Shown here: piece after piece, positions 3,301 to 59,945 of the stretch | Layout: the number at the start of each line of letters is the position of its first letter | Position numbering within the stretch: position 1 is the stretch's first letter | From: the human T2T-CHM13v2.0 reference genome, Homo sapiens | Length of the DNA stretch: 64,000 nt | Reading direction: 5' to 3' (one strand) | Assembly: GCF_009914755.1 (NCBI RefSeq) | Contig: NC_060938.1 | Translations under genes and position numbers: made by a program | The notes under the pieces: generated by a model | The model's input: only the letters and a program-made list of their open reading frames with translations | Told to the model about the DNA's origin: nothing | Databases searched by the model: none

Positions 3301-4740
3301 CACTCCCTCAGGGGTGGTTCCTGCTGAGGGTAAGATCACCAGGTGACCGCAATTATCTGGGAACCTGCTGGTCCTCTGTGCTTGCCAAAGTCAGAGTGGG
3401 TTGTGGGGTTCAGATGTCCTGGTGGTGCAGTAGATCAAGGGTGGAGGATTCCCAGGCAGGGCAGTGGCACTGCCGATATACAACTGGTATGGTGCCTGTG
3501 GCCTGGGGTTTTCAGACCATCAGGTGGTTGTGGGTCTTGCCCAGCTCATGCACCCCTGACCCAGCTGGTTGCTGGCATTCACCCTGGCAGGAGGCCCAAA
3601 TGGCTAAGGCCTCCTGCCAGGGTGAATGCCAGAGACACCTCTTCAACCACAGTGTCTGTGTTACCTCTCTGTTGACTTTTAGTATTTTTCCTCAGAAAAT
3701 CTGACTGAAGTGTGAAGCCATTTGTGCCAAGATTGCTGAGCTGTTCCAGGCATTCCAGGCTGTGAGGCTCCCTGGGGAAGAAGCCGTGGCTATCAGGCCA
3801 TGCATGCCCTCCTGGTCCAGTTTTACTAAAGGAGGTTCACCCAACCTCTGTGCTGGCACATGAACCTATGCCACACTCTTCTCTGTGTTCTGACAGTGGG
3901 AGCTTCTCCCCCACTTGAGATCAGACCACGAATCTCTGCTCGATACCCCAGGGCAGTATGCTCGAGTCCTGAAGAGTTGGGATCTGGTCCACAGATTTTT
4001 CTGTTAGTCCCTCAGGGTCAAGCACCAGCTGTGATGGGGTGCTGAACTGCCCCCAGGCTGCCAATACAACTCTCAGGTGGGGCAGTGAAGGCTGTGTTGT
4101 GGGTACCCTCCTGCAGAAATGGCCAGGTAGGTGGCCTTGATAGGGGCCAGCAGGCAAGAAGGCACATGGATCAGATGCACCTCAATCCTGCAGCAATGGC
4201 AATAGGGCCTGTCTTGAGCATGTGAATGTACCCCGGCCCTGCTTCCCCTCAGTTGAGCAGACAGCAGTTGCTGCAACCTCTCACTGCAAGAAGGAGAACC
4301 TTGGCAGATGGGCTCCTATGACTATATTTGGTGCAACTGTACAGCACAGTGAAGCCTTCTGGGCTCTGCATGGGTTCAAGCTGTGCCTCTATTTGTTCTC
4401 TGTGCAGCTTCCCCTGCCAGTCCAGAGGTCTATGAGGGTCATGGGAACTCCTGTAGCTAGGATCTCAGAGGACCATGGTGGGAATGCAGTGGTCCAGGGT
4501 TCCTTCACTCACTCCTTCCTTAGGTCTGGTCCAGGTCCTTGGGCTGGTCCTGGCACTCAGGGACTGCAAGCAGGCTGCCCTGTTTCCTCCCTCTTCAACC
4601 AAAGTGTCTGTGTCACCTCTCTGTTGACTTAATATTTTCCCTCAAAAAATCTGATTGAGGTGTGCAGGTTTACTCGATATTTTGGTTCCTCTCCATGGAA
4701 GAGGTGCTTCCAGCTGTGTCTAGTCAGCCATCTTGTCCCT
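309..4740 (-). mobile_element. Old primate L1 (L1PA13-16/L1PB-like): ORF2 5' half, ORF1 and 5'UTR
   Basis: Antisense RT and EN-like sequence collinear with the L1 at 20.4-23 kb; ORF1-like peptide EFRIWMARKLNEIQEKVE (2557-2745); ends in GTCAGCCATCTTG (L1 5'-end YY1 motif). About 0.6 kb internal deletion near 690. Confidence 0.9.
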
Positions 4741-11920: not shown

Positions 11921-14018
11921 TCTTTTCATTGAGGTCCTTGGTGGTGGTCAACATTCTGTTTCAGGCTTCCTCCATTCTATGTCGATGGCACAATTGTGCA
12001 GAGCTACCTTGTTCCCTGGAAGTGGGGTGGAGGACCTGTTTTTTTGAGTGTGTGAAGGAAAGAAATGAGCCAAAAAGCACATCTTGAAAAAAAATGTATT
12101 ATAGCATAGCATTGGTAATTTGGAACATTTTATTGATTTTGAAATCATGTAAGATGTTGTCCTGATATATTAAAAATAATCTTCCTTTTAAATTAAGGAA
12201 ATATAATATTTTCTTTGTTTGAAATGATGCTTTATTGGTTATTATATGAAAAGTAGCTTAATTGGAATTAAACATTACCTTTTAACATGAGTTGAGAATG
12301 AAACCGAAACCTTAAATTGCACCCTAAAGTGCAGTTATAGAACTGACAGTGTGTACAGTCCTGGAAAATACTAATTCATAAAGAATAATAGACTTTAATG
12401 CTGTGCTTAGCATTTCAATGTCACAATTAAAAATTCTACAAGATAGTTAATTGAATATTTTATGCTTCTAGAAAGGGCCTTGATCCTCAGAATTGCATAC
12501 TAGTTCTCAAATTCCTTTTATATAATGCTGAATTCCTTTAAGGAATTAAAAATTCATTTGTGTTTCACATGAGTGCATATTTAGTTTTGCCAACTTTTTA
12601 AATGAGAGAAATATCTAGAATTAATGTGTTAACTTTACTTTTTTTTGGCTAAGTTAGACTTCTGGAACATAAAATATCCATGCAGATTATCATGATTCCC
12701 CCATGTAATCCTGCACCCTTTATATGAGCAATTATAATTACTTTTCTAACTGTAATGTTACTGAGTTGTCAGATGAGGTTGGAAAACATTTCATGCCCGA
12801 TTTTCCCAATTTTCATGTATTCATAATCTTATTTAGCCCTTTCCCTTTTCTGTTTTGTGAGTTTTGAGCTTTTCAGCCTAGCCTTTATTTTTCTCTTGAT
12901 GCTAATTTATGAAATTCTGGTACTAGCAATAAAACTGTAGGGCCATCTAACTGCTGATGAAAATCGCAGCATGATAAGAAAGATAAAGTATTCCCTCTTC
13001 CTCTATATCTGTAGAAACATGGGCACGATTTTATTTTTGTCATAAAACCACTCTTGGAAATTTTATTTTTAACAAAGGAGTCTTGTAAGATGCCTGAATT
13101 TTATGCATTGTTGCCATGTTCTGGGAAGGTAACCTGTAACCTCTAAAAAAATTGCAATCTTTTGCTCATCTTACATAATAATTTGTTGTTCTGAAAATAA
13201 TATTTAAATCAACATTCTTTTTTTCTGAAAGATAAAAATACTTGGAAGTTGAAAAGCTTAACAGACATTAAGTGAGAAGGGAATTATTGGTAGTTCCCTT
13301 ACCTCTCACATGCAGAGAAGAAAAACACCTGTTGAATTTCTTATTTGAATTAAAAGTTTAGGCGCCAATCTATTTGATTAGAACTGTTTGTTACATTTAT
13401 GATTATGTCTTACTGAAAAAAAAAAAGGTTGAAAGGCTTTCATGAAATTATTTTGGTGTATGCCACACCTGTAGGGCAGAGAGAAAAGGCGTCTGTCATT
13501 TATCTGGTGTCTGTGATTCAGGCATCAATGCCAGATTTTTCTCATTTGAATAACTGAGGCTGTTACTTAAAACGTGTCAGCCCAGGTCCAGGTGAATGGG
13601 AGGCACATAGTTGTGGCCTCTGAGTCAAGGGTGGGCACAAGTCAGGGCCCCAGTAGGACTGTTGCTCCATTGCTAGCCTAGTGGACTTTGCATTTGCCAC
13701 AAGCTTAAGTGGAGTTGGACAATTGGGCAATTGGAGGAGTACGGGTATTCTCTTTTGGAGTTACTCTCCTCCTTTTCTTTTTTTTTCTCCAGCACTAGCT
13801 CTCCTCCCTTTCCAATGTAAAGTAACTTTGTGTGATCTGACGTTGACCAGAAGTAGGAAACATTTGAGGAATTAGGAATTTTCCATTCTTCTCTTGAGAG
13901 TCTTCCTCTCATTCTGATTTACTGCTTCCTTTTGCACTTTCCTGTAAGCCACTGGGTAAGCATAATTTAAAGCATAAAAACCAGACTCTTCTAGACCACT
14001 GAGGACCTTCCCCAAAGG

Positions 14019-14145
14019 AGAGATTGATAACTAATTCTTTTTTGCATTTGTTGTCTCTCATTTCCCTTCCTGGATTTTTCCTGGATTTTTCCAGGAAGGG
14101 AAATGAGAGACAACAAATGCAAAAAAGAATTAGTTATCAATCTCT
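14019..14145. repeat. Perfect inverted repeat, 56-bp arms, 15-nt spacer
   Basis: 14019-14074 is the exact reverse complement of 14090-14145. Confidence 0.97.
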
Positions 14146-14276
14146 GGATTTTTCCAGGAAGGGAAATGAGAGGTTGTTTTTGAGACTTTCAGTTAATAAG
14201 GTATGGATAGATAGATTTTACTTTACCTAAGCCTGGTGAGAATAACTGTAAATTGAGCTTTCAAAATAAGAAAAGT

Positions 14277-14336
14277 TTTAATGCACGTTATTATGGCATG
14301 TGCTGTTTAATGCACGTTATTATGGCATGTGCTGTT
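14277..14336. repeat. Perfect 29-bp tandem duplication
   Basis: TTTAATGCACGTTATTATGGCATGTGCTG twice. Confidence 0.97.
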
Positions 14337-15025
14337 CTAGAACTGCTAAGCAATTTTCAATATGTGTAAATCCCAGTCTTGGTTCACTTATGGTAACATT
14401 ATGTTGTTGGATGATAGATTGAGGTCAGAAAGAAAGAACACTATCTCAGACCATTAGGTTGTGCCTTTTTACACCAACTTAGGTTGTCATTTTTAACTTT
14501 TCTTATGAGGAATACTATCAATATGAACCAGACACTACAGTTGTTGAAGTCCTTCTTGCATCTGAAATGCATTACTGGGCCACCTGAGATGAGAAATATG
14601 AGATTGTAGATTAAGACAGTTATGTGGTGTTTCCAGCCTTTTAACATTGAATATTGATGGATACCCAGTCAACTTTATTTGCAAAACATCACTTGGTCAT
14701 AATTATAGAATTTAAAAATGACCCATGTTAGTTTTGAGCAAAGCCAATGTGAAACCCAATATATACAATTTCAACTTTATGCATTAGAATAAATATTCAC
14801 TTTACATTTTGAATGATTAAAATAGAAGATTTGTTTGGAATGCATAATTAAAACTGTTTTCAAATACAAGTACTTCTATCTCTTGAAGGTTAAATGGTAT
14901 TATAAGATAAATGATCACTAATATGATAAAAAAATGGTAAAAAAAGATAAAGCGTATATTAATTGCAGTGACAAGTATACCCAACTCTGATGTTTCTTTG
15001 ATATCTTTTCTTTTAGATCCCGATT

Positions 15026-15324
15026 CTTTTTTTTTCTTTTTCCTTCGAGAGGGAGTTTCACTCTTGTTGCCTAGGCTGGAGTGCAATGGCACTATCTTGG
15101 CTTACTGAAACCTCCGCTTCCCAGGTTCAAGCGATTCTCCTGCCTCAGCCTCCCAAGTAGCTGGGATTATAGGCATTTGCCACCACGCCTGGCTAATTTT
15201 GTGTTTAATAGAGACGAGGTTTCACCATGTTGGTCAGGCTGGTCTCACTCCTGGTGTTAAGTGATCTGCCCACCTCAGCTTTCCAAATGCTGGGATTTAC
15301 AGGCATGAGCCACCGTCCCCGGCC
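15026..15324 (-). mobile_element. AluS (Sp/Sq-like), TSD ATCC(C/T)GATTCTTTT
   Basis: Full dimer; GTTTCACTCTTGTTGCC/GCAATGGC diagnostics. Confidence 0.95.
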
Positions 15325-25137: not shown

Positions 25138-25227
25138 CTGCCTTGCACATTTGCTATATATATATATTTTTTTATTTATATTATATATATTTGCTGTATA
25201 TGTATATATAGCAAATGTGCAAGGCAG
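25138..25227. repeat. Inverted repeat, 25-bp perfect arms around AT-rich spacer
   Basis: CTGCCTTGCACATTTGCTATATATA (25138-25162) versus 25203-25227. Confidence 0.93.
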
Positions 25228-30410: not shown

Positions 30411-31154
30411 TATATTATCACTGAGTTATTTCTTTAGAAGGTTCATCATTCCAGGTCCATGAAATCATATATTGAAAATCATATATTGAGTAAAAACAAT
30501 TTCAGGCAGGCTCTATTTCCAACTCAAGGCAAGTCCTTTCACTGCATTGAAACCCACAATAGTACACCTGTCTTTGCTCCATGCCTTCTTCTAGCTGGGA
30601 GTTGAGACTCTGCTCTTTGTCAGAATTTATTTTTACATGCAGTTTGATTAAAAGAAAAATGGTTATATTATTCCTAGGGAAGTTTTTGTTGATTGGTGTG
30701 CCAATTATTAAGCCATTGTTTTCCACCTCGAAGTTGACCTTCTATAATTGGTAATACTGGGTCTGGGATTCTGCCAACTATTTGTTCTTGGCTAGTTTCC
30801 TGTTAGGATCTGCCAGGAGCAGTAGAGGGAGATTGGAAGGCAGGAGGTTAGAGAAGCGACGGCTCATTCCTGATTGTTTGCTATTACCATCAATGTCGTC
30901 CCAGCAATGCAACTTTATCTGGGTATCCAGGATATTATTTTGGGCACAAAATTTAAGGAGGCTAACCTTGCATTTGCAGGAGATGAGCAATTGGCTCCTT
31001 AAATTTTGTGTCCTAAGTGCCTCACTTGCACAACCCTCTAGTCCCTGCCATAAAAACTACTATTAAGAATTTGGTATGTTTCATAGTCTTTTGTAAAATG
31101 CACTTTTTATGTGGTTTTATTCATATTTTTGAACAACTGCATATTTAAAAAGAT

Positions 31155-58975: not shown

Positions 58976-59945
58976 TGGGCTCTTCACTTTCTTAGAGGGC
59001 CTCTAAGGCCTAAGAAAGTGAAGAGATTGTTAAGAGGATACCTACTGTCTGCAAGTGAATTCAGCCTTCATAATGACCTCTGAAAGGACTTAGAACTGAA
59101 CTGCTATCAGTGTCTTGGTGTCTTAATTCAGTAGCGCTGGTTGCCCTGCAGCTGGGAACACTGACTCAACAAGTTAAAGTGGAATTACCACTGCAGTATA
59201 AACAATCAAGTGGGCTGTGTTTTGAGCTAAGGTTGGGAGGTTAGTAGATTTAGTCATCAGCACCAAGCAAAAGACAAAAATGAATAAAAGGGTTAAAGAC
59301 TAGGTAAGACATTTGATCTGGCAGTGATGACAATCATGAGTGCGCAGTATCAGCCCTGGAAATTACTACACAAATGACAGGTGCGTTTTGTGATTTTGAA
59401 GGCAGGATAGTGAATGGGAAAATAAGCTGATATTGAACAGAGTTAGTAGATGCTGAGGGTAACTGAAAACTACAGTCCCAAAGGGAGCTGAAAAGAAGTT
59501 AAAGTTGTCAAGGTTCAGGGAGATTGGACTGGGGCAGCAAATGTGGGACCAATTCAAATAATTCTCTAGGATTGTTTTAAAAGCTGATCCTTCTTGTCCC
59601 AATGGCAGGATATTTTATTTCTCACAATTTTAAGCACAGTTTAAAAAACTATTTGAAATGTACCATTTTACAATGTTCATTATTAGAATAAATGAACTTT
59701 TTAAAAACACATTTCAAGTCTCAAAAATCTTAAACTTAGAATTTCTAGAGCTCAAATGTAAGCAACTTCATTCTGAAAACCATATGGGAAAAAGAATTAT
59801 TTGTCAAAAATAGTTCAATGATACTGTCAAATAAAGATATCAGAAACAATGACTTGCTTTCCTCTGCTTCAGATGGCCCCGTGATGTGAATTCTTAGATT
59901 GCTATAGTGAATTCCAAATATAGCAGTGTCAACTTGGATAATATA

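What the first reader, a model, noticed from the sequence alone, without database searches (positions are those of the whole stretch)
14019..14172. Perfect 56-bp-arm palindrome with nested direct repeats in unique DNA
Seen: 14019-14074 and 14090-14145 are exact reverse complements with a 15-nt loop. CCTGGATTTTT is tandemly repeated across the loop, and 14081-14109 is repeated exactly at 14144-14172. It matches no transposon I recognise. Inference: zero mismatches indicate a recent multi-jump template-switch event seeded by the small CCTGGA/TCCAGG inverted repeat. It can extrude a cruciform, and if transcribed forms a long RNA hairpin, the usual raw material for de novo lineage-specific miRNA/endo-siRNA.
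Basis: partly seen in the sequence, partly recalled or inferred. Interest (0 to 1): 0.75.

Follow-up and report, generated by a model that had tools for sequence, protein, structure and literature searches.

The report
Copy-error hairpin in human gene desert
A perfect 56-base mirror repeat in gene-free human DNA is real and is likely the scar of one DNA-copying accident that inserted 87 bases copied from next door; nothing found shows it has a function, so it is probably an ordinary neutral mutation.

Summary
It is single-copy in the assembly. Every base is explained by local copying. Best reconstruction: 14018-14104 (87 nt) is an insertion flanked by a 6-nt direct repeat, so the LEFT arm is new and the right arm old. 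Minus-strand synthesis slips back 63 nt, folds back on a 5-bp mini-hairpin and returns, each jump at 5-nt microhomology; this rebuilds the allele exactly apart from the 11-nt loop duplication. The opposite history mimics that pattern in 0.3-0.4% of simulations. No ape sequence was available, so direction and age are inferred. Multi-switch templated insertions are a known class. A microRNA role is unsupported: no host gene, 56-bp stem, no Rfam family at threshold, and 0.9% of such genic hairpins are annotated miRNAs. The 15-nt spacer likely hinders cruciform extrusion. A clean new example of a known mutation type; low interest.

The parts
14018..14104 (.). Inferred 87-nt insertion (removing it leaves repeat-free sequence)
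   Evidence: inferred, no outgroup seen
14018..14023 (+). 6-nt direct repeat, copy 1 (GAGAGA); junction microhomology
   Evidence: equals 14105-14110
14019..14074 (+). Left arm, 56 nt; inferred new fold-back copy
   Evidence: pairing; direction, inferred
14075..14089 (.). 15-nt spacer; 4 nt without the loop duplication
14067..14092 (+). 11-nt tandem duplication over the hairpin tip, with 4-nt microhomology
14081..14109 (+). 29-nt direct repeat, copy 1; 14081-14104 inferred new (slip-back copy)
14090..14145 (+). Right arm, 56 nt; 14105-14145 inferred ancestral
14105..14110 (+). 6-nt direct repeat, copy 2; inferred break / departure point
14144..14157 (.). 5-bp stem, 4-nt loop mini-hairpin; inferred fold-back seed (about -3 kcal/mol as DNA)
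14144..14172 (+). 29-nt direct repeat, copy 2; inferred ancestral template; 14168-14172 is the 5-nt landing site of the first jump
14277..14336 (+). Perfect 29-nt tandem duplication, 104 nt downstream; possibly the same error-prone synthesis tract
   Evidence: link untested

Best explanation
The perfect 56-bp inverted repeat is likely a neutral scar of one multi-jump template-switch event that inserted 87 nt (14018-14104) copied from the 68 nt to its right, so that the left arm is likely the new one. Shown: the sequence, its repeats, its single copy, and that the path below rebuilds it base for base. Inferred path, on the minus strand: synthesis runs leftwards to 14105, slips back 63 nt to a 5-nt match at 14168-14172 and recopies 24 nt; the new 3' end folds back on the 5-bp mini-hairpin and copies 51 nt of its own strand; it stops 2 nt into the older copy of that mini-hairpin, where its last 5 nt match the departure site, and normal synthesis resumes. 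The result was a 56-bp palindrome with a 4-nt loop. An 11-nt duplication of the tip (4-nt microhomology), by slippage or by nicking and rejoining of the hairpin tip, then widened the spacer to 15 nt, which would make it more stable in the genome. The enzyme (stalled replisome or polymerase-theta end joining) cannot be told from sequence. It most likely does nothing. Odds: local templated copying 0.9; right arm ancestral, given that, about 0.75.
For: Exact rebuild by coordinates, 205 of 205 nt, of the allele less one loop unit, with seed pairing and 5-nt return match verified. Exhaustive test of pure-insertion histories: of 9,019 deletion-derived ancestors 2,952 were repeat-free, 553 ancestor-strand pairs were solvable, 156 in three jumps; the 28 best (every junction 5 nt or more) are all minus-strand and keep the right arm, and the shortest of these ancestors is the 87-nt one (5, 5, 5). 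If the left arm were ancestral, a right-arm reading with both junctions at 5 nt or more appeared in 0.27-0.43% of 200,000 simulated events. No distant donor. Walker et al. describe events that give mixed direct and inverted repeats and look like one large insertion (PMC7954356); Monttinen et al. report multi-switch cases that their two-jump model misses (PMC10710096). Same window, with paralogues as outgroup: the 25-bp hairpin at 3572-3632 has its right arm missing in 4 of 4 aligned copies.
Against: No ape, monkey or second human allele was seen. With the loop duplication kept in a single pass, the 30 top-ranked four-jump paths are plus-strand and keep the LEFT arm (worst junction 2 nt); the right-arm path then has a 1-nt junction (worked by hand). 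A looser statistic (any direct repeat of 6 or more within 4-6 registers) is met in 2.9-4.0% of left-arm simulations, and the left-arm reading's own coincidences are common under a right-arm history (29%, on an assumed run-in). Ancestors that lost sequence in the event were not enumerated. The 5-nt direct repeat at 14050-14054 / 14173-14177 stays a coincidence (0.16% per fixed offset; found after the fact).
Confidence: 0.65

Rival explanations
1. Left arm ancestral: plus-strand synthesis folds back at the 6-bp tip hairpin, copies 56 nt, returns, folds back again for 20 nt and returns (about 89 nt inserted), or does so in two events via a 20-bp hairpin and a 63-nt insertion. This is closest to the first reader's picture.
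For: Ranks first among one-pass four-jump paths for the full allele; the fold-back seed is 6 bp; ancestor is about 2 nt shorter.
Against: Always needs a 2-nt junction at 14144-14145 and a forward copy of the nascent strand that physically costs one more switch; leaves the 6-nt direct repeat as a 0.3-0.4% coincidence.
Confidence: 0.18
2. Artefact of the CHM13 assembly or a change private to that cell line.
For: Long-read libraries can make fold-back chimeras (recalled); no second haplotype was seen; the locus is not among the 4,016 rows of Walker's great-ape event table.
Against: Three junctions with 5-nt microhomology plus a tip duplication are not a simple read fold-back; Walker's two-jump model would miss a three-jump event anyway, and the GRCh38 place searched rests on recalled gene coordinates.
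Confidence: 0.06
3. A non-autonomous DNA transposon (MITE) at 14055-14172 with 20-bp terminal inverted repeats and a 5-bp target duplication.
For: 20-nt perfect inverted pair flanked exactly by the same 5-mer on both sides.
Against: One copy in 3.1 Gb; the interior holds an inverted copy of the 36 nt outside the left end, which a mobile element would not; perfect ends imply youth, while human DNA transposons are old (recalled).
Confidence: 0.02
4. Whatever its origin, the hairpin is transcribed in some tissue and cut into a lineage-specific miRNA or siRNA.
For: Very stable fold on both strands (-112.5 and -108.6 kcal/mol); loop of 15 nt meets the 10-nt preference; template switching did create at least 18 curated human miRNAs; an Alu lies 811 nt away pointing at it.
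Against: No annotated gene within 12 kb and none overlapping; no CpG-island-like stretch in the window; 8 runs of 4 or more T on the Alu's strand would stop Pol III first; apical UGU, basal UG and CNNC not found in a crude check; 56-bp stem against a preferred 35; 99 of 111 such miRNAs are intragenic and 57 of 6,054 suitable genic hairpins are annotated; 31 Rfam matches, all below gathering score.
Confidence: 0.03
5. Templated copying with loss of unknown ancestral bases (a replacement, not a pure insertion), by a path not enumerated here.
For: Template switches often change length both ways (29.5% shorten, PMC7954356).
Against: A loss-free path with 5-nt matches at all three junctions exists.
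Confidence: 0.06

Closest known systems
Short-range template-switch mutations, four-point model (Loytynoja and Goldman 2017, PMC5453318; Walker et al. 2021, PMC7954356)
   Same: Inverted copy of adjacent sequence made in one step; '4 before 1' events give mixed direct and inverted repeats and appear as one large insertion; copied length within the reported range (maximum 128).
   Different: Needs three switches plus a tip duplication, not two; 56-nt arm against a median of 12; the model explicitly leaves out successive rounds.
Synthesis-dependent MMEJ / polymerase-theta templated insertions (PMC2943611, PMC5728401, PMC5068794; search listing only)
   Same: Synthesis primed at a short direct repeat and then at a short inverted repeat next to the break, joined at a new microhomology (loop-out and snap-back; detail recalled).
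   Different: 87 nt is long for such inserts (recalled); no known break or enzyme dependence.
Template-switch-born miRNA hairpins (Monttinen et al. 2023, PMC10710096)
   Same: A perfect stem made at once from unstructured sequence: -21.9 to -112.5 kcal/mol over the same flanks.
   Different: Intergenic, no known transcript, stem 56 bp, not an annotated miRNA in the hub's gene table or Rfam.
Centre-break stabilisation of palindromes (recalled; term seen in search listing)
   Same: A small asymmetry arises exactly at the tip; joining two opened hairpin ends at the 4-nt match would give this 11-nt duplication.
   Different: Plain slippage gives the same product; described for much longer palindromes (recalled).

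Membership tests
Four-point short-range template switch | Inverted fragment copied from within about 100 nt | tested here: met
Four-point short-range template switch | Exactly two switches explain the allele | tested here: not met
   minimum 3 jumps without and 4 with the loop duplication among repeat-free pure-insertion ancestors; so it works like one but is a multi-switch case
Four-point short-range template switch | Outgroup allele lacks the copy | not testable with these tools
   no primate genomes held; no paralogue
Four-point short-range template switch | Listed in the great-ape catalogue | tested here: not met
   no chr14 row starting 452-454 in S2 Data, 4,016 rows; GRCh38 place estimated from recalled coordinates; S1 Data alignments unreadable
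Multi-switch templated insertion (SD-MMEJ / FoSTeS-like) | All inserted bases templated from flanking DNA | tested here: met
Multi-switch templated insertion (SD-MMEJ / FoSTeS-like) | Microhomology at each switch and at the final join | tested here: met
   5, 5, 5 and 4 nt, on the inferred ancestor
Multi-switch templated insertion (SD-MMEJ / FoSTeS-like) | Dependence on polymerase theta or on fork restart | not testable with these tools
   needs experiment
MITE / DNA transposon | Terminal inverted repeats and target-site duplication | tested here: met
   20-nt pair with 5-nt flanking repeat
MITE / DNA transposon | Dispersed copies | tested here: not met
   1 match; Dfam itself not available
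MITE / DNA transposon | Interior unrelated to the flanks | tested here: not met
   14110-14145 is the inverse of 14019-14054
miRNA gene | Stem near 35 bp with loop of 10 nt or more | tested here: not met
   stem 56 bp, loop 15 nt
miRNA gene | Match to a known family | tested here: not met
   0 of 31 Rfam matches reach gathering score
miRNA gene | Microprocessor motifs (basal UG, apical UGU, CNNC; recalled) | tested here: inconclusive
   none found on either strand, but anchored on the 56-bp stem ends only
miRNA gene | Expression of both arms with precise ends | not testable with these tools
   no read data
Cruciform-forming palindrome | Short spacer allowing extrusion from duplex DNA | tested here: inconclusive
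   spacer 15 nt; the 4-nt-loop register with an 11-nt bulge is 3.6 kcal/mol less stable; extrusion itself not testable

The most novel reading that the evidence does not exclude
The locus is a germ-line record of a palindrome's birth and taming: one error-prone minus-strand synthesis tract made both the 29-nt duplication at 14277-14336 and the three-jump 87-nt insertion, the resulting 4-nt-loop palindrome then broke at its tip and was fixed by the 11-nt duplication, and the surrounding gene desert is a hotspot for such fold-back events (4 other perfect hairpins of 16-25 bp in 64 kb against 0 in 200 kb). Intermediate alleles would then still segregate in humans or apes.
Probability: 0.12. Interest if true: 0.5.

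Novelty: new member of a known kind. Interest (0 to 1): 0.22.

Why it matters
As it stands it is one more, unusually clean, example of a known mutation process, of the multi-jump sort that published two-jump scans do not capture. It gives a sharp prediction (an 87-nt gap in an outgroup) and shows that which arm of a palindrome is new can be read from junction microhomologies. It would matter more if intermediates segregate, if the region is a hotspot, or if the hairpin yields small RNAs; none of these is shown.

Tried and rejected
Paralogue as outgroup for the hairpin: none; one search found only an old repeat at about 12884-13250. Distant donor for the 27 nt around the tip: none within 2 mismatches, so an ancestor joined at the 5-nt flanking repeat, which needs such a donor, was rejected. 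Rfam: plant and animal miRNA models match on both strands through structure alone, all below threshold. Walker et al. supplements: 0 hits for six coordinate prefixes in 6 files, no chr14 row in a wider search that returned rows for other chromosomes; the alignment file was too large to read. The structural-variant table of PMC11811171 was in a zip too large to read; two other papers were not held; the paper reader was closed, so lists of fixed or polymorphic insertions were not seen and may hold this locus. Full-text searches found nothing for the neighbouring lncRNA id, a 17-nt arm motif or coordinate prefixes (one unrelated fish paper). Earlier scan findings were not open. First version of the enumeration timed out. 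Alu read-through as a promoter: rejected for Pol III by intervening T runs. Background sample is only 200 kb, so the hotspot idea stays a lead.

Full report
Observation. It is the longest perfect inverted repeat in the window. Ten simulated 64-kb sequences gave longest arms of 11-14 nt, and 20 background stretches of 10 kb held no arm above 14. The fold is -112.5 kcal/mol, z -14.5.

Uniqueness. DNA searches of the whole assembly with 13900-14400, 14105-14700 and 13300-14020 returned only the locus and its self-matches; 12500-14950 added five weak matches to an old repeat at about 12884-13250. A 27-nt pattern with up to 2 mismatches matched once. The DNA search skips very common words, but it did recover a 51-match old family elsewhere in the window. 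A MITE reading deserved a test, because 14055-14074 and 14153-14172 form a 20-nt inverted pair flanked by the same 5-mer. It fails on copy number and because the interior is an inverted copy of the outside flank.

Reconstruction. A 6-nt direct repeat sits at 14018-14023 and 14105-14110. Removing the 87 nt between its copies leaves repeat-free sequence that folds at only -21.9 kcal/mol. I enumerated all ancestors obtainable by one deletion and searched for the fewest template jumps on either strand. With one loop unit set aside, 2,952 of 9,019 ancestors were repeat-free, 553 ancestor-strand pairs were solvable and 156 needed three jumps. The 28 best, with 5 nt or more at every junction, all keep the right arm and run on the minus strand; the shortest is the 87-nt case. 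Rebuilding by coordinates (copy to 14105, slip back 63 nt, copy 24 nt, fold back on the 5-bp hairpin, copy 51 nt, return at a 5-nt match) gave the observed allele less the loop unit, 205 of 205 nt. The fold-back copy ends 2 nt inside the older copy of the mini-hairpin, a plausible stall point (inference).

How firm is the direction. Under a left-arm history, a right-arm reading with both outer junctions at 5 nt or more arose in 0.27-0.43% of 200,000 simulations. Against: a looser statistic gave 2.9-4.0%, and the left-arm reading's coincidences are common under a right-arm history (29% on an assumed run-in). For the full allele in one pass (2,937 repeat-free of 10,307 ancestors, best four jumps) the 30 top rows keep the left arm with a worst junction of 2 nt, though they use a forward copy of the nascent strand that would cost a further switch. 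Ancestors that lost bases were not enumerated. My rough estimate is 10-30 to 1 for the right arm within these models, discounted to about 0.75.

The tip. Without the 11-nt unit the palindrome has a 4-nt loop (-65.2 against -63.6 kcal/mol as DNA). The unit has a 4-nt microhomology, which fits slippage, an aborted first fold-back, or nicking and rejoining of hairpin tips.

Age. With about 155 sites that would show a change, the chance of none is 0.40 since the chimpanzee split, 0.09 since the orangutan split and 0.01 since the Old World monkey split; on direct repeats alone 0.62, 0.29 and 0.09 (divergences recalled). So hominoid-age or younger, not necessarily human-specific. Perfect arms can mislead: the 25-bp hairpin at 3572-3632 is perfect although the adjoining inserted piece is 88% identical to its nearest copy (4% expected if equally old).

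Function. No gene overlaps the window (hub table). No CpG-island-like stretch was found, the Alu 811 nt away points at the hairpin but 8 T runs lie between, and three processing motifs were absent in a crude check. All 31 Rfam matches are under gathering score. In PMC10710096 the preferred stem is 35 bp, 99 of 111 template-switch miRNAs are intragenic and 57 of 6,054 suitable genic hairpins are annotated. Expression could not be tested.

Known or new. The class is known: PMC7954356 describes events that leave mixed direct and inverted repeats and look like one insertion, PMC10710096 notes multi-switch cases outside its algorithm, PMC5453318 leaves successive rounds out of its model. This locus was not found in Walker's event table or in full-text searches; supplements listing insertions could not be read and may hold it. 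What I saw: PMC10710096, parts 1-3 of 6 of the text and the supplement list; PMC7954356, abstract, section 8, first part of section 24 and searches of 6 supplement files; PMC5453318, 12 of 23 passages; PMC11811171, supplement list only; PMC2943611, PMC5728401, PMC5068794, PMC9303309, PMC3300023, PMC8053094 and PMC4937565, search listing only.

Surroundings. A perfect 29-nt tandem duplication lies 104 nt downstream; only 2 such complex duplications occur in the 264 kb examined, about 0.2% to fall so near (after the fact). It is also a slip-back and lies earlier on the same minus-strand path, so it may belong to the same event (untested). The window has 4 other perfect hairpins of 16-25 bp against 0 in 200 kb of background (p about 0.003, small sample, after the fact).

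Verdict. Real, single-copy, explained by local multi-jump copying; likely neutral. New member of a known kind; interest 0.22.

Noticed in passing
window 14277-14336: Perfect 29-nt tandem duplication with 2-nt microhomology, 104 nt from the hairpin; the only complex one in the window. May share the event.
   Followed up: partly
window 3572-3717: Perfect 25-bp hairpin (11-nt spacer) inside an old interspersed repeat; 4 of 4 aligned paralogues hold the left arm only and lack about 100 nt, made of the right arm and a piece 88% identical to window 4590-4667. Looks like a second multi-jump templated insertion.
   Followed up: partly
window 25138-25227: Perfect 25-bp arms around a 40-nt AT-rich spacer, arms ending in a TA run.
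   Followed up: no
window 58980-59025: Perfect 16-bp arms directly at the end of an Alu-like stretch, with a second short inverted repeat nested across the spacer.
   Followed up: no
window 30945-31010: 16-bp perfect arms that extend with mismatches; two weak matches elsewhere in the assembly; may be the ends of an old DNA transposon (guess).
   Followed up: partly
whole window: Five independent perfect hairpins of 16 bp or more in 64 kb against none above 14 bp in 200 kb of background; possible local hotspot.
   Followed up: partly
window 14454-14497: Two imperfect 19-nt direct repeats whose ends recall the MADE1 mariner MITE (recalled resemblance, untested).
   Followed up: no
window 14983-15323: Minus-strand Alu pointing towards the hairpin.
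   Followed up: yes
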